64,000 nucleotides of DNA from a virus (IMGVR_UViG_3300025597_000009:36587-100586); one strand, 5' to 3'; positions 2,840-27,052 are shown, counted from the stretch's first letter. The notes: generated by a model not told the origin, from the letters alone. A program made the numbers and translations.

Positions 2840-2920
2840 AGTACTAGAAGGATTGGTGAGGTATCAAAAGTAATAGAGGGACTAACAATTGTCGTTCAGA
2901 ATAACCTAGTTTGATTATTG

Positions 2921-3265
2921 CTACGTAACTGTTGCAGTTGGAGTACTCATCAGAAGCTCTCCACATACAATGTGATGATGGGTAAGGGCTTCATTGTAAG
3001 TGGTGTATCTCCATTGCTGATTAGTATACTCTTCTAACTCTGAGTTAAATACCATAGTCTCAAATACAATGGGATCACCTTCCCCATCAAAAGTAGAAAA
3101 TCGATGGTCTAATCCTAGGAATACAGTAGAGACTTCTCCTAATTTTCCTAGATCAGTTTTCTTTACTACTCTTTGATCAGGATTTTGCCACATCCATGTA
3201 GACCACTCTTCTAGTGTACAAGGCACTACCCTATTATCCTCATCCAATTTATAGTATAGACGCAT
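2921..3265 (-). CDS. Conserved hypothetical phage protein
   Basis: STVFLGLDH...FETMVF motif familiar from phage hypothetical proteins. Confidence 0.7.
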   Translation of the reverse strand: MRLYYKLDEDNRVVPCTLEEWSTWMWQNPDQRVVKKTDLGKLGEVSTVFLGLDHRFSTFDGEGDPIVFETMVFNSELEEYTNQQWRYTTYNEALTHHHIVCGELLMSTPTATVT

Positions 3266-3271
3266 ATTTCT

Positions 3272-3547
3272 TTAAGCAGGTAGTAACTTTCTACCAATAG
3301 TAAAGGCACAGATGGGAGTTTCAGGGTCTTTAGTATCTCCATCAAACTCCACTAAATATAAATCAGTACCTCTTTCAGGTTCTTGTATACTGCCAAGTAC
3401 TGTGCCTTTAGTACCATCTTTATGTCTATCTTCAGGTCCAGAATTTGCCTTTTCAACTCTATTTCCAACTTTGAAGAGGCATTTAGGATCACCTTTTAGT
3501 ATTTGCTGAAGTAGTGGATTATCCTCATTCATTTGTATTTTTTGCAT
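3272..3547 (-). CDS. Hypothetical protein (SH3-like beta-barrel?)
   Basis: FKVGNRV...GTV...YLVEFD pattern. Confidence 0.55.
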   Translation of the reverse strand: MQKIQMNEDNPLLQQILKGDPKCLFKVGNRVEKANSGPEDRHKDGTKGTVLGSIQEPERGTDLYLVEFDGDTKDPETPICAFTIGRKLLPA

Positions 3548-4020: not shown

Positions 4021-4733
4021 TTCTTCTTTTCCTTTCTAAATGAAGATTTAACATCAAATCCATGGCTAACAATCTTCTCCTTATCAGTCAATTGTCTTGG
4101 CTGAGGATCTTTGTCAGTGAGTTGCATACTGATAAACTGCTCCAATTCCTGGTAAGCAGTGAAGGGGTCTTTTACAGTAATGAAATCAACACTAGATTTA
4201 TCCAGTTGAGGATTTACTATTAGTAAAGGATCATTTGAAATAGTTGGCCAGCTTACTTTATTAGCTAAAGTTGGATAGGTATATCCCCTGGCAATAGCAA
4301 AAACTGGAACTTTGTACTGTAAGAACAGGTTAACTTGCTCTATTTTAGGTAGAAACTCCTTAAACAGATGGTCTGTTTTCCAACGGAAATACCCAATTTC
4401 ATCTTCATAAACCTTTTTGACTTCTTCCAGGTCATAGGTAGTTACTCTATGTATTTCTTTATCACAAACCAAAGTCCTAGTCCAGTCACATATGTCCAAT
4501 CCTACATGCAGTTGACCAGCAAAGCCAATAATGAAAGGAGCAATGTACATGTTCTCTGATCTACCTCTGAATTGTCTGTATCCAGATGCTCCATGTGTAA
4601 ACTTGTTTAGAAGTGGTAGTTGTTGTGCAGTAATGATGGATGTGTTTCTGTAATACTTTACTGTATCATCTGGTTTACCCAGTGTATACTGTATTGTATC
4701 ATAGTAGTCTCTGAAATCAGAATAAATTTTCAT
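4017..4733 (-). CDS. Conserved hypothetical phage protein
   Basis: 238 aa; DYYD N-terminus and HGFD.K.SFR C-terminus. Confidence 0.7.
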   Translation of the reverse strand: MKIYSDFRDYYDTIQYTLGKPDDTVKYYRNTSIITAQQLPLLNKFTHGASGYRQFRGRSENMYIAPFIIGFAGQLHVGLDICDWTRTLVCDKEIHRVTTYDLEEVKKVYEDEIGYFRWKTDHLFKEFLPKIEQVNLFLQYKVPVFAIARGYTYPTLANKVSWPTISNDPLLIVNPQLDKSSVDFITVKDPFTAYQELEQFISMQLTDKDPQPRQLTDKEKIVSHGFDVKSSFRKEKKK

Positions 4734-6735: not shown

Positions 6736-7114
6736 CAGAATCAAAGACTGGAACCTCAAACTGAAATGTACCTGATTCAACTAAAGCCTGGGCTGTGTCT
6801 TTTGTAACATACATATAGACACCAGGAACAGAAACATGGTATACTGTAATTTTAGGTTCCAGCTTTTCTAATTGCTCTGTAACCATACTGGCAATAATCT
6901 TCAATGTTTTTGCCTTATTTTGGGTATTAAGAAGCAATTGCTCTGCATGTTTGACTTTCTCCTCCTGAGCCTCCTGAAAATCTACTACCTGATCTAATAT
7001 AGCATGAGCATTATTTGGCCCCTCCTCCCAAGTTAAAGCATCCATATCAATGGTTACTTCATTGATGATGTATACTCTTGGATTTACTGTCTCAATGTGA
7101 ATTGGTTTTGCCAT
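6722..7114 (-). CDS. Hypothetical protein (likely start MAKPIH)
   Basis: ORF convergent with integrase; upstream extension overlaps a terminator hairpin. Confidence 0.6.
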   Translation of the reverse strand: MAKPIHIETVNPRVYIINEVTIDMDALTWEEGPNNAHAILDQVVDFQEAQEEKVKHAEQLLLNTQNKAKTLKIIASMVTEQLEKLEPKITVYHVSVPGVYMYVTKDTAQALVESGTFQFEVPVFDSVTVA

Positions 7115-7131
7115 AATATATTGGTAGAAAT

Positions 7132-7168
7132 AAAAAGGGCTAGTCAAGTAATTAGCTCAACTAGCCCT
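7132..7168 (-). terminator. Intrinsic terminator
   Basis: AGGGCTAG...CTAGCCCT hairpin with T-run on minus strand. Confidence 0.65.
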
Positions 7169-7193
7169 AAGGTTAAACAATAGATTCTGATTA

Positions 7194-8229: not shown

Positions 8230-8337
8230 CCCAGGGAAAAGGAATCGAACCTCTATACAAACTGATTCAGTTAATGAAAGCCTATTATTGGCTTTTATAA
8301 AACCTCAGTTTTGCTCTACCAGTTGAGCTATCCCCGG
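8230..8337 (-). ncRNA. tRNA-like RNA with anticodon loop replaced by a ~35-nt structured insertion
   Basis: Acceptor CCGGGGA/TCCCTGG, D arm GCTCAACTGGTAGAGC, T arm AGAGG TTCGATT CCTTT; AAACTGA/TCAGTTT encloses an extra hairpin AAAGCC/GGCTTT. Confidence 0.75.
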
Positions 8338-13064: not shown

Positions 13065-14378
13065 TTAATCAGCTTTTACACTAAATTCCTGATAAGAACC
13101 ACCAGATCGAATACAAAACTTCTGCATTCCTTCATGATCACCTTCCAGGATAAATCCATGGGTTACCACTTTAGGATACCAGCCTTCTTTAATATGGTCT
13201 TGGCCATCATTGATAATACAAATCTGTGGTCTATCCCCATTAAAGCTAACCTCACCTTCTTTTGTAGGTACACTACCTTTTTTAATAAATTCAATAGTGT
13301 TCTCAATTGCTCGTTGCATGTCAGTACCTCCTCTACCAAATTGGAAATACTTATTAAACTTTTCCCATACATGCAGACATTCTTCTCTAGTCTTGATAAC
13401 TAACCAATGAGGGTCTAGGCGGCTTTCAAATGTGCAAATGTAGAGTTCAGCATTTCCCTGACTTACCTGTTCACACCGATTTAGTAGTAAGGCTTTTACC
13501 CACCCAATTTTATCTGAATCATGCATGGAACCAGAGTCATCAATAAGCAGAATAAGTACTTGCTTATTGAAGCTAATTCTAACCCCCTTTTTGATCTCCA
13601 GTTGCTTGGTAGCCACTTTATAATTAAAGGTGGGCATAGCTAATTGAATAGCTCCAACTTTTTGTACTTCAGAGTATTGCTGTATACGCAACATCCGTGT
13701 CTTCCTGGCACTAGGATCATCTTCTTTGGATTTTGATCTATATGCTTTGATATTTCCTTTCCTGTTTAAAATGGAAAGCTTTTTCAATACATCCAGATTT
13801 TCAGCACCTAGTTGGCCAGCTCGAACACCATTGAATACAGAGGGATCTTGATCCCCTAGTAAAGCTTTCTCAGTGAAACTGTCAGCTGGCATAATTTTAC
13901 CAACCATCTCAGCATTCTCTTTTAGCTTTTTAGCAATATTGGCTCCTGATTGGTTTCCCTGGAATATAGGAAGTTCTTCTTCTTCAGTAGCTCCTCCTTT
14001 ACCTTTACGGCCACCTGCTCCCTGATTAGAAAGAGAATGGGCAATGTTTAAGGCTTGTTCCAGCGGAGTATCCCCATTGAAAACTGATACATCAATGTTC
14101 TTTAAGAATTCCTGAGCTTTCTTATTGAACTCAAACACACGTTCCTCTGCCTTTTCCTGAGTCTCCCCTTCTTTAGGTTCTACATTATCATAGTTCCAGG
14201 TAGAAGGTTTGGTAAAAGCTTTAGCACGTTCATCTTCAGGAAATGAAGTTAGATTGGCAATATCCTGTACTAATTGTACTGAATATGTACCCTGTAAATT
14301 CATTTTCTTCACTACATGCTCAATCTCTTTTTTGGATGGAGTGATGTAGTTTTTGTGGGGTACAGTTCGTTGGATCAT
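13065..14378 (-). CDS. VWA-domain protein (MoxR partner, ViaA-like)
   Basis: MIDAS LIDDSGSM, GGTD, IINDG; directly downstream of AAA ATPase. Confidence 0.85.
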   Translation of the reverse strand: MIQRTVPHKNYITPSKKEIEHVVKKMNLQGTYSVQLVQDIANLTSFPEDERAKAFTKPSTWNYDNVEPKEGETQEKAEERVFEFNKKAQEFLKNIDVSVFNGDTPLEQALNIAHSLSNQGAGGRKGKGGATEEEELPIFQGNQSGANIAKKLKENAEMVGKIMPADSFTEKALLGDQDPSVFNGVRAGQLGAENLDVLKKLSILNRKGNIKAYRSKSKEDDPSARKTRMLRIQQYSEVQKVGAIQLAMPTFNYKVATKQLEIKKGVRISFNKQVLILLIDDSGSMHDSDKIGWVKALLLNRCEQVSQGNAELYICTFESRLDPHWLVIKTREECLHVWEKFNKYFQFGRGGTDMQRAIENTIEFIKKGSVPTKEGEVSFNGDRPQICIINDGQDHIKEGWYPKVVTHGFILEGDHEGMQKFCIRSGGSYQEFSVKAD

Positions 14379-14381
14379 TGA

Positions 14382-15284
14382 TTAGGCTAGTGCTCCTAAG
14401 AAGTTCAAATCAGTATCAGCATTGGTTTTTTCCAAGGCATTATCCAGACAGGTTTTCTGGTATGTTTTCCAGATTTCCCGAAGTTTTTTGTATTGTGGCT
14501 GAAACTCATCTCTGAAGGATTGATCATCCAGAAACTTAATAACTCTCTCAGCTGCTTTACTGTACTGGATGTACCGGATAGGGGTATTCTTATCCACTGG
14601 AGGCAAATCAGAAAGCTGTTTGTGCATAGCATTAAACTTCTCTCTTTCCTGCCGAATAGCTTCAAATTCTTCCATTTGAGACTCAATCTCATTTACATGG
14701 TGAGGATCAAAGCCAGCTACATACTTCAGCCCAGACAAGCCAGCTGTGTTGTACACAATAGCTGCCTTAACAGCTGTTCTTGGAGAAATGAAATTGTTTC
14801 TACTTACTTCAGCCACAATTTGGGCAAACGTATGCATGGGTTTTTTGAGCACTTTATCAAACAGGAGTGCATAATCTTCCTGATTGTAAGTTTCCCATTC
14901 TACCCGGTGCTCTAAAGGAAAACGCTCCATCAAGGCTTTGATAGAATCATCCTCAGCAATTTCTTCCCGGCTTCTGTTGGTACAAACTACAATACACTTG
15001 GTTTTGATGGGTACTTGCTGATTTCCATTTCTGAACTGTTTTGAAGTTAGAATATCCTTGAGCTGTTCTAATACGGCTGTAGGAGCATCCAAACCTTCTT
15101 CCAGTATAACATACTCATGGCTCATGAAACTCCGTTCAATATTATATTCAATGGCACCATGGTCTTGAAATTCTTTCATTTTCAATCCCCCTAACAAGGA
15201 TTCTATTGTTGAGCCCTGGCCAAGTGATTGAATAAACGGCTTTTCATCAATAGCCTTAAAGAATGCTTCACTCATTTCACTTTT
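14382..15284 (-). CDS. MoxR/RavA-like AAA+ ATPase, exon 2
   Basis: Begins KSEMSE (completes Walker A), Walker B VILEE, sensor CTN, Arg finger ALMERF, ISPRT. Confidence 0.85.
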   Translation of the reverse strand, partial: KSEMSEAFFKAIDEKPFIQSLGQGSTIESLLGGLKMKEFQDHGAIEYNIERSFMSHEYVILEEGLDAPTAVLEQLKDILTSKQFRNGNQQVPIKTKCIVVCTNRSREEIAEDDSIKALMERFPLEHRVEWETYNQEDYALLFDKVLKKPMHTFAQIVAEVSRNNFISPRTAVKAAIVYNTAGLSGLKYVAGFDPHHVNEIESQMEEFEAIRQEREKFNAMHKQLSDLPPVDKNTPIRYIQYSKAAERVIKFLDDQSFRDEFQPQYKKLREIWKTYQKTCLDNALEKTNADTDLNFLGALA

Positions 15285-16555
15285 CTAATTGTTATTAACC
15301 ACAGGCTTTTTATCCTGTGCTCTGGAAGTTTCCCTCATTTTCATCAGTTGGTCATTTCCAACTCAGTATAGCATATATTTTCACCTCCAACTCAATGGTA
15401 AGGTGGGGAACACTCGTGGTAGTATTATAGTCTGTTTTACAGGATCAACTACTATGCGTTACACTACCAATAAATCTTTAAGTTATTGGTTAGCTCGGTA
15501 TTAGCACTTCACTTTGAGCCTTCACCGATTTTGCTCCCTCATAATCCAAGATATTTCTATCCTGGACGGCAAATCCAAAATTCTTGAAAAGTTGGTATCT
15601 GTTGTACTTTCTATCTAAATGCAAAGAACTAGTTTCATATAGCTTTTTTAAAATATCAATACTGTCTGGACAACTATAAGAAGTCTCAAAAACAAAGTGG
15701 CTTGCTGTTTCTTCAGAGTTAGCCAATAAGTAATTTCTTTCCCTATAGTTTAAGACCTTGTTAATACCTTGTAAAACATCTTTAGTGCCTAAAAATTTAA
15801 CAATTGGTTTGTATCCACTTGTGGTATGTGTAAATGTAAAGCAACCATCACCATCAAAGTAACCTCTTACAAAAGCTAGTTGATGTTTATTAGGTAGTTG
15901 ATTTTCAGACGGAAATAGTAAAGTTTCAGATTTTTTAGGAGTACATCCTAAACTAATTAGATCTAATCTCATTTGTTTACTATAAAAACAATATCGAGCA
16001 GCTTTCCCATCTTTAGTTAGATAGATTTTATTATCTGCCTTTATAAATTGCTTAAATTTTAACAAATGGTTCATATCACTAATTTTTAATCCTAGTTCAA
16101 TAGCATTTGTAGTCGAATGGATTGCACCATCTGCATACAAAAACCCAAGCCAGTAAGCTTTTTCATCAGTATCAATAGTTGAAAAGAGATTATGTTGAGT
16201 TCCTCTTTCATTTTGTCTATTGATAATCTGTATTCCATTAGCTTTGAGTATTTTAGATATTCTTTCTGGTCTTGTTTTGAACATTTTACCTATTTTTTCC
16301 AAACTGTAACCTTGCTTATAATACTGTATGTATTCTTCAGCTGTACCTAATGTTTGATTTTGTTGATTTAATACACATACCCCCTTACTTCTTAGATACT
16401 TATTAATAATGTAAGGTGAATTCCCAAATTGTTTTACAAGAGAAGCTATACTTCTTTGATTTACAACATACTCATACTCAATTAATTTACCTAACTCCTC
16501 TTCCATATCTACACATATTTAACTATATGTAAATATACGAATTTTAGATGTGTTT
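15285..16555 (-). mobile_element. Group I intron with LAGLIDADG homing endonuclease
   Basis: Exon 1 ends in U (GGT), intron ends in G; splicing restores GKGGHG|KS; core-like elements AAATCGGTGAA, AACGCATAG, AATATATGCT. Confidence 0.88.
15490..16506 (-). CDS. LAGLIDADG homing endonuclease with N-terminal HTH-like repeats
   Basis: YWLGFLYADG and FVRGYFDGDG motifs. Confidence 0.92.
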   Translation of the reverse strand: MEEELGKLIEYEYVVNQRSIASLVKQFGNSPYIINKYLRSKGVCVLNQQNQTLGTAEEYIQYYKQGYSLEKIGKMFKTRPERISKILKANGIQIINRQNERGTQHNLFSTIDTDEKAYWLGFLYADGAIHSTTNAIELGLKISDMNHLLKFKQFIKADNKIYLTKDGKAARYCFYSKQMRLDLISLGCTPKKSETLLFPSENQLPNKHQLAFVRGYFDGDGCFTFTHTTSGYKPIVKFLGTKDVLQGINKVLNYRERNYLLANSEETASHFVFETSYSCPDSIDILKKLYETSSLHLDRKYNRYQLFKNFGFAVQDRNILDYEGAKSVKAQSEVLIPS

Positions 16556-17518: not shown

Positions 17519-18148
17519 TTAGGCAGCTACTTTATACAATGTACCCTGAATCTTGAGTGTTTTGATAGTCTGAAGATTCACCTGCCGAATACAATCATGA
17601 GGTGTTGTTTTCTTCTTACTTAACTCAACCACTTTCACATACCCTAACACATTTGGGTCCTGACCAGACAAGTATTGACCATTAAGCACCCTTTCTTCCC
17701 CTTTCTTTTTCTTAAAGGTTACAGTAAAGAAACGGCCACCAGCATTGCTCATCAGCTCAAAAGCCTTTTTCTTGCCAATTTTTATGACTTTAGAAGGTTG
17801 TTGAACTGGCAGAGCAGGAGTAGCTACAGCATTAGCTGCAATAGCTTGACCAAAAGCAGCTTGTACATCAGGAGTTTGCAAATTTGTCATGGTAATGTTT
17901 GGGTCTGAATAAATTCTGAATACACCTGTATCCTCAAAGGTAAATAGGCCTTGAGCAGTAAATCCTTGCATAAGCTTACTTACCAGTTCCTGAGTCCAAT
18001 TGTATTCTGGGTGATCTTCCCTGAGCTTTAATTTTATCTCCAGGGTGGTTACTCGATTGGTAGCTTTGAGCAGTTGTAAGGCTGCATCTAAACAAAGTTG
18101 ATCTCTTTTACTCATGATTTGAGCCAAATCACTTTTTTTATATGGCAC
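17519..18148 (-). CDS. Protein with wHTH-like N-terminus and WYL_2/SH3-like C-terminal domain
   Basis: FFTVTFKKKKGEERVLNG...IRQVNL.TI pattern. Confidence 0.55.
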   Translation of the reverse strand: MPYKKSDLAQIMSKRDQLCLDAALQLLKATNRVTTLEIKLKLREDHPEYNWTQELVSKLMQGFTAQGLFTFEDTGVFRIYSDPNITMTNLQTPDVQAAFGQAIAANAVATPALPVQQPSKVIKIGKKKAFELMSNAGGRFFTVTFKKKKGEERVLNGQYLSGQDPNVLGYVKVVELSKKKTTPHDCIRQVNLQTIKTLKIQGTLYKVAA

Positions 18149-19320
18149 TGTGACTCATTATAGGCTATGATTTCTGAATTCAATAGCCCATTACCAGCAC
18201 TAACAAAGGTGCTGTCAAATCCACGTTCCTTTAGGTTTTTATAGGTAAGAGCAAATTCATTCCCTCTAAACCATCCCTCATACTTAAAAGGATTTCCCAC
18301 ATGTACTTCATACACCAGGATTACCTTGTCTGAGTCATATCCAGTATAACCCAATGATTTAGCCATTGTCTCACTGAAATAATTCCCATCACCATACGCT
18401 TTACCACTGAACTGAAAATTCCCTGTTGGTCTGATCTTTAAACCCTGTTCCAGAATTGGAAGTACTGAAGTACATCTTGTACCATGAATGAGTGTTCTGG
18501 TCTGTCTGTTCTCTTGGGAACTCATCCACTGGTTAAATGCTTCATCTTCCCTGGTTTTCTTCACAGAAAATACAGCATGTACTTTTCCAGATCGTCCATG
18601 ATAGCCTGAACTGAAATTTTGATCCAGCAAATACTGAATATCAGCATAATCCTCTGTTTCTTCCATTTCAATTCCCAACATATCCAGTAAGGATTGTTGT
18701 AACGTGACCTCTGCTTGGGTTGCTGGCTTTTTGCTAAGCAGTGCAACCTGTGAGGCAATTGCATCCAGATTATCTTGTTCCTGTTCAAAGACTTTGTCTA
18801 GGTTAATATTGGGTAGTAAGTAATCTCCTACTCTGCCCATGTATCTAGGGATCACTGTGTAGATTTCAATCAGCTTTTTGTTAATTGTCAGGGTATCCAG
18901 CCGATTTAAAACACTCAACTCATTGATTAGCTTTTGAGCAGCTTCTAACTGATGTTGAGTTACCTGAGTAGCTTTAACTGAGTAGGTTTTTCTAACCAAA
19001 TTATCCCGATAACTCTGCATGAGCTTTAAAAACTCAGCTACCTTTCTACTAACAGTGTCACCAATAATTGGCTGAGTATCTGTAACAGGATCATCTACTA
19101 CAGTTGTAGCTACTAATTCAGTTACATCTTTGTAACCTTTAGCAATCTTTTCCCTTTTCAGGCTATTCCACTTGCTATAAGGATAAGACTTACTAGTGGA
19201 TGTGCTTTCTACCCTGCCATAATTGACAGTAAAATTAGCTCCACCAGTATAGACCATCTCGTAGAATTTATTATTGTTACCACTGGTTACCATTAGTAAC
19301 TTACAATAATCTTGTTGCAT
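18112..19320 (-). CDS. WGR-domain PARP-like ADP-ribosyltransferase
   Basis: NNNKFYEM...YGRV (WGR); catalytic LIHGT, YGDGNYFS, KSLGY, NSEIIAY (H-Y-E triad). Confidence 0.88.
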   Translation of the reverse strand: MQQDYCKLLMVTSGNNNKFYEMVYTGGANFTVNYGRVESTSTSKSYPYSKWNSLKREKIAKGYKDVTELVATTVVDDPVTDTQPIIGDTVSRKVAEFLKLMQSYRDNLVRKTYSVKATQVTQHQLEAAQKLINELSVLNRLDTLTINKKLIEIYTVIPRYMGRVGDYLLPNINLDKVFEQEQDNLDAIASQVALLSKKPATQAEVTLQQSLLDMLGIEMEETEDYADIQYLLDQNFSSGYHGRSGKVHAVFSVKKTREDEAFNQWMSSQENRQTRTLIHGTRCTSVLPILEQGLKIRPTGNFQFSGKAYGDGNYFSETMAKSLGYTGYDSDKVILVYEVHVGNPFKYEGWFRGNEFALTYKNLKERGFDSTFVSAGNGLLNSEIIAYNESQCHIKKVIWLKS

Positions 19321-22706: not shown

Positions 22707-23065
22707 TATGCAGGTACATCAGGTGAGAAAATACGGTTTTCAGGCTTACTCCAATCAATCCACTCCATGTCACAATATGGACGATTAGAACCATTAAGTT
22801 GTACAGGAATGTACATTCCCCAACTGGGTGTAGGTTGTAAGCAAAGTGCATCATTGGCCAGCATGCCTACAATCAAATCATGACAGGTGTCATCTTCATA
22901 CTTCTGTTTACCAGCTTCTGTAAAACAAACCCAGATGCCTTCATTAGGCCCAACAGGTACCAGTAACTGAACTTTACCCAGGTGTCGCTGGTCATAACTA
23001 AAAGGGCTGAATGTTAAACTCCGGCCATCTTTTAGGGTTAGTGTAGCTGTTTCTTGAATGGTCAT
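22706..23065 (-). CDS. Hypothetical protein
   Basis: 119 aa ORF. Confidence 0.6.
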   Translation of the reverse strand: MTIQETATLTLKDGRSLTFSPFSYDQRHLGKVQLLVPVGPNEGIWVCFTEAGKQKYEDDTCHDLIVGMLANDALCLQPTPSWGMYIPVQLNGSNRPYCDMEWIDWSKPENRIFSPDVPA

Positions 23066-23250
23066 TTTAGTTCTTGTTTATGTAAAAACTCAAGAATTTC
23101 CTGGTCAGTTGGATTCGGTTTTAATAGGCCACTTTTAATGCACAAAAACATAAGTGGGCTATTATGGTATTTGTCTTGTTTGAACTGGGCAACTAGATCT
23201 CCTTCTAAATACTCTCTGATTGAGAATAAGATTTTGAATCTTCTAGTCAT
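23062..23250 (-). CDS. Hypothetical protein, similar to the N-terminus of 21708..22337
   Basis: R.FK.L..R.Y...P.D..I..L resemblance. Confidence 0.5.
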   Translation of the reverse strand: MTRRFKILFSIREYLEGDLVAQFKQDKYHNSPLMFLCIKSGLLKPNPTDQEILEFLHKQELK

Positions 23251-23267
23251 ACAATAATCAATTGGTT

Positions 23268-23695
23268 ATTAGCACCCTCTTCTCACTATCCTTTTCTGTC
23301 AAGCAGTAAGTGTAGGGTCACGTAGTTATTATATCTCGTTGTAGTAAGGACTGGGAATCCTCTGAGGTGATCGTTCCTCCATAATTAACTACTTGCTGAG
23401 AACTCATTAATGTGGAGTTGGAGTGATTCAGGAGTGTATAGCATTACCTTGTCACCAACTTTGCAAATTTCCCTTTACAGGTACTTTCCTGACATTCTAT
23501 GCTCTTTCTCAAGGAGCCCACATTTCTAGGATTTCTCTTTCTGATAGCTACGGGTTTAAATTCTCTAATGTCTTAATATGAAGAGACCTAAGCATTATTA
23601 AGTAGACTGCTACTACTCAGAAACTCATTAACTAGAGCTAGTATCTTTATTGAAATTAGATTAGTATAATTTCAACCAGGATCAATGTTTAGCCT
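23268..23695 (-). ncRNA. Large structured ncRNA, copy B (~430 nt)
   Basis: Shares conserved blocks and covarying stems with 23696-23985; no ORF. Confidence 0.7.
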
Positions 23696-23985
23696 ATTAG
23701 CACCCCTTAGTCACTGTTACCTTCCATAGAGGAGGTGGTTTACCAGTCGGGTCAAGCTGAGAACTCATTTGTGTTGTATAACGAATGTCTAAACGATACT
23801 CATGTTATATTTACATCATTCCTTTCTCAAGGGAACAACACATCCATCATTACTGAAGCTAATCCTCCTTCTCTTCTATTGGCGAAGATTTGTTGGGTTG
23901 TCTTTAGCTAGTTTGTCAATTCAAACTTGGTATCTTTTATCAAGGCTAGATTAGTATAGCCTGACCAGGAATCAATGTTTAGCCT
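23696..23985 (-). ncRNA. Large structured ncRNA, copy A (~290 nt)
   Basis: AGGCTAAACATTGAT...TACTAATC...CTTGAGAAA...AATGAGTTCTCAGC...GGGTGCTAAT. Confidence 0.7.
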
Positions 23986-23989
23986 GTTA

Positions 23990-24130
23990 TTTTCCATGCT
24001 ATCTGGACTCGAACCAGAATCAATCAGAGGACTTACACCTCAACTTCAGTCCTGTTTAGGTGCTGCTTGGATTTACCCAAGCCCCGTATCTCTACAGGGG
24101 GATCTGCCATTCTCCCATGGACATGGAAAA
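23990..24130 (-). ncRNA. tRNA-like structured RNA (~140 nt)
   Basis: Terminal stem TTCCATG/CATGGAA, T arm TCTGG TTCGAGT CCAGA, internal hairpins, no canonical anticodon arm. Confidence 0.55.
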
Positions 24131-24134
24131 ACTC

Positions 24135-24827
24135 TTAATTGACTTTAAATGAAATGTAGTAATGATTATTGTTAACAATTTCAACTCCTGGCACATTATA
24201 AATAGACGTTAAGTTATCTACACCAGCTTGAAATACATCATGCAATTCCTTGTAAGGTTCCGCATCATAATCTACCATTGTTGTGTAATATTTACTAAAC
24301 TTTTCATGTCCCCAGGACTCATTCAAGAGAAATCTGCATAATTGATTCTCAGGCTTTATAAAAGCCTGCTCTAAGAAGTAAGTACAAGTTGGGCCAAGAG
24401 TGTAAGGCAATGAATACTCAGGCTTAAACCGAAGATCAAAATTAATAACTGCCTTAGCTGTCACAATAGCTGGTTTTACACAATCCACTAAAGTAACCTG
24501 AGCACAATCAGAAAAATACTGTACATTATTTACTTTACTAGTTGCAGGATAAGCCTGTTCTAATTCTGCTAAAGCAGCCTCAAAAGCCTCAACAGAAGTA
24601 CTATAATAAGTTTCTCCTGTTAAACAGAAAAAGGCTTTTACACTGCTTAAAGGCCCAACAAAGCCTTGTAAAGGCTGTTTGTATAACTGCTTATCTTTGT
24701 TAACAAATGAAGCAGCTAACCGATAGCCACCACCCATAAGCTTTTCAGTTGGTAACCAGATGACTGGTCTAAACTTGTTTTGTTCAGGGCTAAAATTTAC
24801 TGTTATATTTCCAAGTAAACTATCCAT
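24135..24827 (-). CDS. Hypothetical protein
   Basis: 230 aa ORF. Confidence 0.6.
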   Translation of the reverse strand: MDSLLGNITVNFSPEQNKFRPVIWLPTEKLMGGGYRLAASFVNKDKQLYKQPLQGFVGPLSSVKAFFCLTGETYYSTSVEAFEAALAELEQAYPATSKVNNVQYFSDCAQVTLVDCVKPAIVTAKAVINFDLRFKPEYSLPYTLGPTCTYFLEQAFIKPENQLCRFLLNESWGHEKFSKYYTTMVDYDAEPYKELHDVFQAGVDNLTSIYNVPGVEIVNNNHYYISFKVN

Positions 24828-26384: not shown

Positions 26385-26387
26385 CAG

Positions 26388-26458
26388 TTACCCAGGGAAG
26401 ATTCGAACTCCCACCAAGAGGACCAAAACCTCTTGTGCTACCATTACACCACCGGGTA
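26388..26458 (-). tRNA. tRNA-Gln(TTG)
   Basis: Cloverleaf; AGAGG TTTTGGT CCTCT anticodon arm. Confidence 0.92.
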
Positions 26459-26461
26459 GGG

Positions 26462-26536
26462 TTAATAAAGCAATCATTCAACTATTTTCGTAGTCATCAT
26501 AGAGTTGTAGAAGTAAGTTGAATTTGGCCTTATTAA
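26462..26536 (-). ncRNA. Y-RNA-like hairpin
   Basis: TTAATAAGGC-C-AA-ATTCAACT-TACTTCT...AGTTGAAT-GA-TT-GCTTTATTAA. Confidence 0.82.
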
Positions 26537-26543
26537 TAAGAAA

Positions 26544-26612
26544 ATCAGGTAATCCATACACTAATTTCAGTTTACCAATCTGTTTTTAGAAGTAAGTGTG
26601 TGTTGACCTGAT
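26544..26612 (-). ncRNA. Y-RNA-like hairpin
   Basis: ATCAGGT-C-AA-CACACACT-TACTTCT...AGTGTATG-GA-TT-ACCTGAT. Confidence 0.82.
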
Positions 26613-26616
26613 CTTG

Positions 26617-26689
26617 TGAGACCTACAGGATTTGAACCTGTAACCTTCTCATTAAAAGTGAGAAGCTCTACCAATTGAGCTAAGGCCTC
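26617..26689 (-). tRNA. tRNA-Lys(TTT)
   Basis: Cloverleaf; TCTCA CTTTTAA TGAGA. Confidence 0.92.
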
Positions 26690-26775
26690 AGGAAACTCAT
26701 CTAATTCAAAGAAAAAGATGAGTAAGCATCTTGTATGAGAAAAAAAACTAATCGGGTTTACCAGTTAAATGGTAG

Positions 26776-26849
26776 TAGGAATACCTGGACTTGAACCAGG
26801 GGCCTCAACATTATCAGTGTTGTACTCTAACCAACTGAGCTATATTCCT
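26776..26849 (-). tRNA. tRNA-Ile(GAT)
   Basis: Cloverleaf; CAACA CTGATAA TGTTG. Confidence 0.92.
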
Positions 26850-26918
26850 AGATTTTGTGCATAAATATTCCCCAATACCTATGCACATGTCCTTTTAGTT
26901 AACGTCCATTATAATGGG

Positions 26919-26992
26919 TAGTGGGTGAGAGGCTCGAACTCCCAACTTCCTGCTTAGAAGGCAGGATTTCTATCCAATTGAATTAACCCACC
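26919..26992 (-). tRNA. tRNA-Arg(TCT)
   Basis: Cloverleaf; CCTGC CTTCTAA GCAGG. Confidence 0.92.
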
Positions 26993-27052
26993 AGAAAAAA
27001 AACTCTTATAATTCAAGGTGTATATAAGAGTCTTGTTCACCGTAACTTGAGT

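What the first reader, a model, noticed from the sequence alone, without database searches (positions are those of the whole stretch)
23268..23985. Tandem pair of large pseudoknotted ncRNAs of unrecognised class
Seen in sequence: 720 bp without an ORF holds two head-to-tail minus-strand homologs (~290 and ~430 nt). They share ordered blocks AGGCTAAACATTGAT, loop TACTAATC, AAAGATAC, ATGTG, loop CTTGAGAAA, AATGAGTTCTCAGC, GACCC and GGGTGCTAAT. Stems covary: GGCTA/TAGCC versus TTGAAATTA/TAATTTCAA around TACTAATC; TTCC/GGAA versus GCTC/GAGC around CTTGAGAAA; TGTGTTGT/ACAACACA versus AATGTGG/CCACATT. Loop TTGAGAA is complementary to downstream TTCTCAG, suggesting a pseudoknot. Inference: a complex structured RNA, either a ribozyme-like or scaffold RNA. 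I do not recognise it as GOLLD, ROOL, tmRNA, RNase P or a group I intron.
Basis: partly seen in the sequence, partly recalled or inferred. Interest (0 to 1): 0.8.

Follow-up and report, generated by a model that had tools for sequence, protein, structure and literature searches.

The report
Two tandem phage structured-RNA genes
The gene-free 720 bases hold two side-by-side genes for a compact, knotted, non-coding RNA from a large family found almost only in phages, usually among their tRNA and tmRNA genes; one relative is a very abundant transcript of a cultured phage, and its job is still unknown.

Summary
Window 23268-23986 (minus strand) holds two abutting, diverged copies of one structured RNA: A at 23697-23986 and B at 23268-23696.

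A covariance model built from unrelated phage homologs scores A at 101 bits (E 2e-19) and B at 30 bits (E 1e-4). No Rfam 15 family matches, even at E up to 10.

The family has at least 150 members in viral contigs. The same pattern finds only 3 MAG contigs among 185,579 prokaryotic species genomes.

Its core is about 150 nt: P1 (loop UAAACAUUGA), AAAGAUAC, P2 (loop AGUAAU), then P3 enclosing P4 (loop CUUGAGAAA) and P5, then AAUGAG-UUCUCA, P7 and GCUAA. P1, P2, P3, P4 and P7 covary strongly. The L4/UUCUCA pseudoknot has a few compensatory variants.

Members lie on the same strand as phage tRNA/tmRNA genes and often abut them. No protein gene is a constant neighbour.

Cellulophaga phage phi14:2 carries a full member in the interval reported as an abundant, early and stable "long non-coding RNA".

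This scan had already met the family on other DNA. I re-tested the phi14:2 and tmRNA links here.

Function is unknown. My best guess (about 0.35) is a trans-acting stable RNA, cut out by tRNA-type processing, that binds a conserved translation or RNA-surveillance component. Ribozyme and RNA-only assembly remain open.

The parts
23697..23986 (-). Copy A, complete family member (290 nt)
   Evidence: CM R1 hit 23696-23989, 101 bits, E 2e-19; element coordinates
23268..23696 (-). Copy B, complete but diverged family member (429 nt) with a larger P2 junction and a P6 insertion
   Evidence: CM R1 hits 23384-23695 (30.3 bits, E 9.7e-5) and 23273-23322 (3' piece); coordinates
23965..23986 (-). A: P1 (CAGG/CCUG) closing the invariant loop L1 CUAAACAUUGAUU
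   Evidence: Sequence. P1 is supported family-wide: mean stem 4.12 bp versus 2.99 +/- 0.11 in shuffles, with 42 stem types
23943..23962 (-). A: peripheral hairpin P1.1 (AGGCUA-UACUAAUC-UAGCCU)
   Evidence: Sequence. Copy B has UUGAAAUUA/UAAUUUCAA around the same loop at 23650-23675
23844..23938 (-). A: J1/2 AAAAGAUAC, then the P2 multiway junction. Base CCA/UGG; P2a 23910-23927 with loop AAUUGA; P2b 23857-23909; L2 AGUAAU 23849-23854
   Evidence: Sequence. P2 covaries: 5 of 5 pairs have double changes, 96.9% paired
23770..23843 (-). A: P3 (23835-23843 with 23770-23777) enclosing P4 (23820-23834, loop CUUGAGAAA 23823-23831) and variable P5 (23778-23819)
   Evidence: P3: 8 of 8 pairs with double changes. 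P4: 3 of 3
23758..23769 (-). A: J AAUGAG (23764-23769) and pseudoknot 3' strand UUCUCA (23758-23763), which pairs with UGAGAA of L4
   Evidence: Complementarity is seen in the sequence. Compensatory variants: L068 GAGCA/UGCUC and L105/L111 GAGGA/UCCUC. Wobble-compatible variants: UUCUCG, UUUUCA
23697..23757 (-). A: 3' domain GC-UUG-P7 (GACCCG...GGGGU)-GCUAA
   Evidence: Sequence. The family P7 outer helix averages 5.3 bp versus 3.75 +/- 0.17 in shuffles
23676..23696 (-). B: P1 (UAGG/CCUG) closing L1 CUAAACAUUGAU
23409..23524 (-). B: P3 (AAUGUGG 23518-23524 with CCACAUU 23409-23415) enclosing P4 (23501-23517, GCUC-CUUGAGAAA-GAGC) and P5 (23416-23500)
   Evidence: Both helices differ from copy A by compensatory changes
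23397..23408 (-). B: J AAUGAG and pseudoknot 3' strand UUCUCA
23268..23396 (-). B: GC, P6 (AAGUAGUUA 23386-23394 with UAACUACGU 23320-23328), P7 (GACCCUAC 23312-23319 ... GAGGGU) and GCUAAU tail
   Evidence: P6 with the same stem sequence recurs in many homologs
23992..24128 (-). Context: tRNA-shaped element (about 10-bp terminal stem, UCUGG-UUCGAGU-CCAGA T-arm, internal hairpins) ending about 5 nt before copy A. It probably marks the 5' processing site
   Evidence: Fold -49.3 kcal/mol, z -3.1. ARAGORN does not call it. T-arm-bearing tRNA or tRNA-like genes end 10-16 nt before P1 in 9 of 122 distinct members

Best explanation
Shown: the stretch encodes two adjacent, diverged members of a large, phage-restricted family of compact pseudoknotted non-coding RNAs. 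The core is about 150 nt. Peripheral helices are expandable, giving 150-520 nt overall. Inferred: the two RNAs are transcribed on the minus strand as part of a long transcript that also carries tRNAs, a tRNA-like element and ORFs. No terminator lies nearby, and the next ORF starts 18 nt after copy B. The RNAs are released by the cell's tRNA-processing enzymes acting on abutting tRNA, tRNA-like or tmRNA genes, and they accumulate as stable RNAs, as the phi14:2 member appears to do. Most likely mechanism (about 0.35): the invariant loops and junctions (UAAACAUUGA, AAAGAUAC, AGUAAU, AAUGAG, GCUAA) are held in place by P1-P4, P7 and the L4/UUCUCA pseudoknot. Together they form a specific surface that binds, sequesters or scaffolds a conserved component of the host translation or RNA-surveillance apparatus. 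That would complement the phage's tRNAs and tmRNA. The second tandem copy adds dose or valency. That these are real genes of this family I hold at about 0.95. The confidence given below is for the functional part.
For: Family membership and structure come from CM hits and from P2, P3 and P4 on 88 distinct homologs. There, 97.6% of cells are paired, 16 of 16 variable pairs carry double changes, and the covariation score is 0.49 versus 0.116 shuffled and 0.086 or less when slid. P1 and P7 are supported against shuffles. It sits in stable-RNA neighbourhoods. The nearest tRNA/tmRNA within 2 kb is on the same strand in 44 of 44 cases. A tRNA/tmRNA starts within 100 nt downstream in 13 of 79 members, 9 of them tmRNA. 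A T-arm ends 10-16 nt upstream in 9 of 122. A full-length tmRNA occurs in 20 of 39 RNA-bearing large phage records versus 1 of 9 RNA-free controls, p = 0.06. No protein partner is encoded nearby: the best neighbour cluster covers 13 of 120 loci. Abundance and stability: the phi14:2 member (NC_021806 about 2913-3360) fills the g004-g005 gap, which was reported as transcribed above most genes from the earliest time point without later decline. About 55 core positions are invariant across 15 diverse seed sequences. Homing-endonuclease genes sit in or beside the RNA gene, as expected for a strongly conserved target.
Against: No partner is identified and no binding has been tested. The association with tmRNA is partial. 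About half of RNA-bearing genomes have none detected, and none is found in the held 43% of this genome. The control set is small. So many invariant unpaired nucleotides are as typical of ribozymes and ligand-binding RNAs as of protein-binding RNAs. Processing by tRNA enzymes does not explain how copies A and B, with 0-1 nt between them, would be separated. The mapping of the phi14:2 transcript to this RNA rests on coordinates, not on read data.
Confidence: 0.35

Rival explanations
1. RNA-only quaternary assembly. Like ROOL and GOLLD, the RNA would self-assemble into a defined homo- or hetero-oligomer (A with B) and work without a protein.
For: The genomic setting matches ROOL and GOLLD: phage-encoded, near tRNA islands, abundant, with pseudoknots, no known protein partner, and tRNA-like pieces in variable regions (for ROOL/GOLLD; here). 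Tandem pairs recur in an unrelated phage context, L154/L178.
Against: Minimal members are only about 150 nt. ROOL env-120 is 659 nt and many GOLLD RNAs exceed 800 nt. I found no conserved self-complementary loop. The only palindromic loop element (AAUU in P2a) is absent from minimal forms (sequence inspection). There is no sequence or model similarity to ROOL or GOLLD.
Confidence: 0.17
2. A new ribozyme. It would either cleave itself at its boundaries, releasing itself and neighbouring tRNA/tmRNA from polycistronic transcripts, or act in trans on RNA.
For: The invariant junction and loop nucleotides, the pseudoknot and the insertion-tolerant periphery resemble large ribozymes. Conservation stops sharply at both ends. 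The RNA is packed 0-8 nt from neighbouring RNA genes or from its own twin, which calls for precise cutting.
Against: No Rfam ribozyme model matches. No cleavage-site signature is identifiable. Flanking tRNA(-like) genes already offer a conventional processing route.
Confidence: 0.17
3. A cis-acting leader for the downstream stable-RNA or early operon, giving processive antitermination, transcript stabilisation or folding help, rather than a trans-acting RNA.
For: The RNA is often the first RNA gene of an array. ARAGORN tRNA/tmRNA genes lie within 100 nt downstream in 13 of 79 members and upstream in 0 of 82, p = 6e-5. No terminator follows it here. Neighbouring genes are almost always on the same strand.
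Against: Here it sits mid-operon, behind ORFs and a tRNA-like element. Most members have no RNA gene within 1 kb downstream. T-arm-bearing elements that ARAGORN misses do precede 9 of 122 members. The stable, high level late in phi14:2 infection fits a trans-acting product. Tandem copies are hard to explain for a leader.
Confidence: 0.1
4. A counter-defence decoy. The RNA would mimic a host RNA that is the target or activator of a Bacteroidota defence system. In this phage it would belong to the island with Y-like RNAs, PARP and MoxR-vWA.
For: It is early and abundant, phage-only, and lies in accessory regions. A homologous MoxR-vWA pair sits just upstream of the RNA in about 12 other loci and 8 kb downstream in the window.
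Against: bpMoxR is found in only 11 of 26 near-complete RNA-bearing genomes and not in phi14:2. No known defence-related RNA resembles it. Sequence conservation across very different phages argues for a universal rather than a strain-specific target.
Confidence: 0.12
5. A known mobile or template RNA in disguise: a group I intron, a retron or UG27-type reverse-transcriptase template, or an IscB/TnpB guide RNA.
For: HNH and GIY-YIG homing-endonuclease genes lie beside or inside some members. UG27 arrays of about 150-nt pseudoknotted units occur in Bacteroidota phages.
Against: No host gene is interrupted and the flanks are not conserved. No Rfam intron or HEARO hit appears. No reverse transcriptase is present in the record, and no RT, IscB or TnpB appears among conserved neighbours. 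UG27 units have little primary-sequence conservation, unlike this family.
Confidence: 0.03

Closest known systems
Unnamed abundant 'long non-coding RNA' of the g004-g005 junction of Cellulophaga phage phi14:2 (Drobysheva et al., bioRxiv 10.1101/2020.03.07.982082)
   Same: It is the same family. NC_021806 about 2913-3360 has every conserved block in order and scores 68 bits with the model. It lies in the same orientation as the phage tmRNA, with the tmRNA 670 nt downstream.
   Different: The paper reports only transcript abundance and timing for the interval. It gives no structure, family or function. phi14:2 has one copy, whereas the window has two abutting copies. That the transcript equals this RNA is inferred from coordinates.
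ROOL and GOLLD RNAs (phage and prophage 'ornate' RNAs near tRNA islands)
   Same: Both are phage-encoded, lie near tRNA islands, contain pseudoknots, are highly expressed, have no known protein partner and have no known function.
   Different: There is no sequence or covariance-model similarity. This family is much smaller, with a core of about 150 nt. Oligomerisation is untested. The hosts appear to be Bacteroidota rather than Lactobacillales or Mycobacterium.
Y RNAs / YrlA with Ro60 (Rsr)
   Same: It is a small, stable, structured RNA that is sometimes fused or adjacent to tRNA-like modules. In this genome it lies in the same minus-strand block as Y-like RNAs and a Ro-like gene, according to earlier notes.
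   Different: It has a different fold, no Rfam match, and no Ro-like gene among the family's conserved neighbours.
UG27 reverse-transcriptase ncRNA arrays of Bacteroidota/Bacillota phages (bioRxiv 10.64898/2026.09.22.753630)
   Same: Both are phage-encoded tandem units of about 150 nt with a pseudoknot.
   Different: UG27 units show little sequence conservation and always accompany an RT plus two accessory ORFs. This family has strongly conserved sequence and no RT.

Membership tests
Unnamed phage RNA family (phi14:2 g004-g005 type) | Ordered conserved blocks: L1 UAAACAUUGA, AAAGAUAC, L2 AGUAAU, L4 CUUGAGAAA, AAUGAG-UUCUCA-GC, GACCCUAC...GAGGGUGCUAA | tested here: met
   All blocks are present in both copies. 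L2 is AGAAAU in copy B.
Unnamed phage RNA family (phi14:2 g004-g005 type) | Significant score with a covariance model built from independent members | tested here: met
   A scores 101 bits (E 2e-19). B scores 30.3 bits (E 9.7e-5).
Unnamed phage RNA family (phi14:2 g004-g005 type) | Helices P1-P4 and P7 are kept by compensatory change, and the L4/UUCUCA pseudoknot is present | tested here: met
   Searches cover the family. A versus B differ compensatorily in P1, P3 and P4.
ROOL / GOLLD | Match to the Rfam covariance models | tested here: not met
   No hit at E up to 10 on the window region or on canonical and minimal members.
ROOL / GOLLD | Homo-oligomeric nanocage | not testable with these tools
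   This needs native gels, DLS or cryo-EM.
tmRNA | tRNA-like domain plus a tag reading frame | tested here: not met
   ARAGORN and Rfam find none in 23268-23986.
RNase P RNA | Match to any Rfam RNase P model (P4 with conserved regions I-V) | tested here: not met
Group I intron | Interrupts a host gene with conserved exon flanks, and matches the intron model | tested here: not met
   The units lie between complete ORFs. Flanks are unconserved across homologs. No Rfam hit.
RT-template RNAs (retron msr/msd, UG27 array) | An adjacent reverse transcriptase | tested here: not met
   No RVT_1 match in the 100.6-kb record, and none among conserved neighbours. The record is only 43% complete.
Small self-cleaving ribozymes (hammerhead, twister, pistol, hatchet, HDV-like) | Match to the Rfam model, and a cleavage assay | tested here: inconclusive
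   No model match. Catalysis cannot be tested here.

The most novel reading that the evidence does not exclude
The family is a new class of catalytic or self-assembling RNA machine carried by phages of Bacteroidota-type hosts. It would act on the translation and ribosome-rescue RNA pool, for example by processing or remodelling tRNA/tmRNA-type transcripts or by engaging ribosomes. The tandem pair would work as a covalently linked heterodimer.
Probability: 0.15. Interest if true: 0.9.

Novelty: categorically new. Interest (0 to 1): 0.7.

Why it matters
Few large or complex RNA classes remain undescribed, and those found in phages (ROOL, GOLLD) proved structurally unprecedented. This one is compact: minimal natural forms of about 150 nt suit structural and biochemical work. 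It is highly conserved and widespread in large environmental and crAss-like phages. It is present in a cultivable phage-host pair (phi14:2 and Cellulophaga baltica), where it is probably among the most abundant transcripts. Its recurrent placement with phage tmRNA and tRNA genes points to a still unknown way in which phages manipulate translation or RNA surveillance. A curated alignment would also fill a gap in Rfam and stop these regions being annotated with spurious small ORFs, as happened in the first phi14:2 record.

Tried and rejected
- **BLAST against deposited phages.** A search of 50,697 phage records with the window region found nothing. A canonical member found only phi14:2, so hosts other than Cellulophaga could not be named.
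- **Literature.** Searches for a description of the family found only the phi14:2 transcript note.
- **Tertiary partner for loop L1.** I looked for pairing with L2 or with AAUG of the J strand. L1 is almost invariant. The few variants (L188, L192, L245, L239, L240) give conflicting registers. No pairing is claimed.
- **GC/GC closing pair around P7.** It is invariant, and the two observed changes are uncompensated (GGGUACUAA in L192, GGGUGAUAA in L060). I leave it as tentative.
- **Anti-Shine-Dalgarno mimicry.** Both window copies contain CACCUCC-like strings, but the family shows no enrichment over background. Rejected.
- **tRNA-like insertions as a family feature.** Only 1 of 97 units has a T-arm-like hairpin inside. 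Rejected as general.
- **Bacteroidota-type promoter (TAnnTTTG) upstream of P1.** It occurs in only 5 of 122 members. No support.
- **MoxR-vWA as an obligatory partner.** Rejected.
- **Neighbouring proteins.** Pfam and PHROG searches of the immediate neighbour proteins were uninformative.
- **Weak model hit.** The hit at window 7084-7177 (14.9 bits, E 0.15) is treated as chance.

Full report
**What is in the window.**

Read on the minus strand, 23986 to 23268 has no ORF of 40 aa or more in the local gene orientation. It consists of two head-to-tail units: A at 23697-23986 (290 nt) and B at 23268-23696 (429 nt).

They abut with 0-1 nt between GCUAA(U) and (U)AGGCU.

Directly upstream, at 23992-24128, lies a tRNA-shaped element with a perfect T-arm and a terminal stem of about 10 bp. 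Its fold is -49.3 kcal/mol with z -3.1. ARAGORN does not call it.

Downstream, an ORF starts 18 nt after unit B. No terminator-like site occurs in 22900-24400. The units therefore sit inside a long minus-strand transcription unit that also carries four tRNAs at 26387-26993.

The window is part of a 100.6-kb IMG/VR virus record estimated to be 43% complete.

**Is it more than chance, and is it known?**

Rfam 15 returns only tRNAs for the window at gathering thresholds. For 22900-24400 at E up to 10 it returns nothing credible. Minimal and canonical homologs also match nothing.

Exact-pattern scans of viral contigs recovered many homologs:
- A 5' block found about 30 true homologs among chance hits.
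- A 3'-domain pattern found 60 loci, 33 of them new.

The loop/strand pattern found only 3 contigs, all from MAGs, among one genome each of 185,579 prokaryotic species.

I built a covariance model (R1) from 15 short, diverse members, none from this genome. It scores unit A at 101 bits (E 2e-19) and unit B at 30.3 bits (E 9.7e-5), plus B's separate 3' piece. B is split because it carries a P6 insertion. These are the only copies in the record. R1 gave 172 hits across the fetched loci.

**Architecture.**

Natural minimal forms of about 150 nt (for example L126:13618-13769) define the core. In order, the elements are:
1. P1, a short helix closing the near-invariant loop UAAACAUUGA.
2. An optional hairpin P1.1.
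3. The strand AAAGAUAC.
4. P2 with loop AGUAAU. In larger members it opens into a multiway junction with P2a (loop AAUUGA) and a variable P2b.
5. P3, of 8 bp, enclosing P4 (loop CUUGAGAAA) and a variable P5.
6. The strand AAUGAG-UUCUCA.
7. GC, then an optional P6.
8. P7 (GACCCUAC...GAGGGU).
9. The tail GCUAA.

On 88 distinct sequences, P2, P3 and P4 are paired in 96-98% of cells. All 16 pairs show changes on both sides. The covariation score for the whole tested structure, including the invariant pseudoknot pairs, is 0.49, against 0.116 +/- 0.008 in shuffles and at most 0.086 with slid partners.

P1 averages 4.12 bp against 2.99 +/- 0.11 for shuffled flanks, with 42 different stem sequences. 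The outer P7 helix averages 5.3 bp against 3.75 +/- 0.17.

The pseudoknot (UGAGAA of L4 with UUCUCA) is invariant in the set selected on those motifs, so that set cannot test it. Members found through other motifs show compensatory variants:
- GAGCA/UGCUC in L068, and partly in L069.
- GAGGA/UCCUC in L105 and L111.

They also show wobble-compatible single changes: UUCUCG in five loci and UUUUCA in L250. Divergent subtypes still keep a UGAGA-bearing loop opposite UCUCA. I rate the pseudoknot as probable.

I could not establish partners for L1, L2 or the AAAGAUAC strand.

**The two window copies.**

Copy A is close to the family consensus. It has a P2 junction with P2a and P2b, and no P6.

Copy B keeps all conserved loops but has different, still complementary, P1, P3 and P4 helices, a larger P2 junction and a P6.

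Both copies are therefore maintained as folded RNAs rather than one being a decaying duplicate.

An independent abutting pair exists in L154/L178. Its flanking ORFs share nothing with this window.

**Genomic setting of the family.**

Among 118-128 distinct members:
- The nearest ARAGORN tRNA/tmRNA within 2 kb is on the same strand in 44 of 44 cases.
- A tRNA or tmRNA starts within 100 nt downstream in 13 of 79 members. Nine of these are tmRNA, and some begin 4-20 nt after the tail.
- T-arm-bearing tRNA or tRNA-like genes end 10-16 nt before P1 in 9 of 122 members, including this window.

At whole-record level, 20 of 39 RNA-bearing phage records of 90-373 kb have a full-length tmRNA. Only 1 of 9 RNA-free control records does (Fisher p = 0.06).

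No protein family is a constant neighbour. The largest cluster covers 13 of 120 loci.

A MoxR-vWA pair lies just upstream in about 12 loci. It is homologous to the pair at window 13065-15275. But bpMoxR occurs in only 11 of 26 near-complete RNA-bearing genomes, and not in phi14:2.

NUMOD4-HNH and GIY-YIG homing-endonuclease genes sit beside or inside the RNA gene in several phages. In L248 the insertion lies between P2 and P3. In the L003 group it follows the pseudoknot strand, and there the 3' domain is missing.

**Link to a cultured phage.**

Earlier notes of this scan named phi14:2, and I checked this directly. NC_021806 about 2913-3360, immediately after g004, contains every block of the family and scores 68 bits.

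ARAGORN places a tmRNA at 4031-4500. Drobysheva et al. report that the g004-g005 and g005-g006 junctions are transcribed above most protein genes, from the earliest time point and without later decline, with function unknown. The two "long non-coding RNAs" are thus very probably this RNA and the phage tmRNA. That is an inference from coordinates.

**How it most likely works.**

Shown: it is a conserved, structured, phage-restricted RNA gene family placed in stable-RNA gene neighbourhoods.

Inferred: the RNA is released by tRNA-type processing of abutting tRNA, tRNA-like or tmRNA genes, accumulates stably and acts in trans.

The mechanism I favour (about 0.35) is a binding platform, either decoy or scaffold, for a conserved host translation or RNA-surveillance component. 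The reasons are:
- its association with tRNA and tmRNA genes;
- the lack of an encoded partner;
- its conservation across very different phages;
- its early and persistent abundance.

The rivals are:
- an RNA-only assembly like ROOL/GOLLD (0.17);
- a new ribozyme (0.17);
- a counter-defence decoy (0.12);
- a cis-acting leader (0.10);
- a disguised intron or RT-template RNA (0.03).

The last is contradicted by the absence of interrupted genes, of Rfam matches and of any reverse transcriptase. UG27 arrays also have a different conservation pattern.

**Novelty.**

The family has no match in Rfam 15, and I found no description of it beyond the phi14:2 transcript note. This scan had already met it on other genomes.

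As an RNA class it lies outside every described family. As a phenomenon it parallels ROOL and GOLLD.

Noticed in passing
window 23992-24128 (-): A tRNA-shaped RNA with a terminal stem of about 10 bp, a perfect T-arm and three internal hairpins (a possible pseudoknot), but no anticodon arm. ARAGORN does not call it. Similar non-canonical tRNA-like genes (GUCAGGUGGCG...CCUGACUAC type) flank family members in L121, L135, L160, L190, L188 and L236.
   Followed up: partly
L230 (NC_021806) 4031-4500 (+): The second abundant 'long non-coding RNA' interval of phage phi14:2 (g005-g006 junction) contains a phage tmRNA. ARAGORN gives tag GSSVQKLAMVA. The Rfam tmRNA model scores 46 bits, just under its gathering score. 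It is not annotated in the record.
   Followed up: partly
window 13065-15275 (-), 18112-19320 (-), 15490-16506 (-): A bpMoxR AAA+ and vWA gene pair, a WGR-PARP gene, and an ORF with a weak LAGLIDADG-like match (E 9e-5) lie on the same strand downstream of the RNAs. The MoxR-vWA pair is homologous (42% and 26% identity) to pairs lying directly upstream of this RNA family in about 12 other phage loci.
   Followed up: partly
window 8230-8337 (-): An Rfam tRNA hit of 108 nt (43.6 bits) that ARAGORN does not report. It may be a tRNA with an insertion or intron.
   Followed up: no
L248:10483-11218 (+); L003:2444-3973 (+): Homing-endonuclease genes lie inside or beside the RNA gene. In L248 a NUMOD4-HNH ORF sits between P2 and P3, with a duplicated P2 hairpin after it. 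In the L003 group a GIY-YIG ORF precedes the RNA and an HNH ORF follows a copy that lacks the 3' domain.
   Followed up: partly
L236:7270-7362 (+), L228: A conserved element of about 95 nt directly upstream of the RNA (GACGAAAAAGGGUUAAUAGUAGUCAU...CCAGUAACCCCGAAAGAC) resembles the pseudoknot region that follows the tag of the phi14:2 tmRNA. It may be a tmRNA fragment or a separate RNA module. In L236 the RNA heads an array of 19 tRNA genes.
   Followed up: no
L126, L134, L174, L184, L187, L200, L219, L223 (flanks of the minimal ~150-nt members): A repeated motif, CUGUUGACUACCAAGAAUAGAUUGG-like, lies just before the minimal RNA and again about 40 nt after it. It could be a phage-specific promoter or a processing signal bracketing the RNA as its own unit.
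   Followed up: no
window 23737-23744 (-) and 23361-23368 (-): Both copies carry anti-Shine-Dalgarno-like strings (CACCUCCU in A's P7 loop, GAUCACCUC in B's P6). Across the family such strings occur at the background rate.
   Followed up: yes
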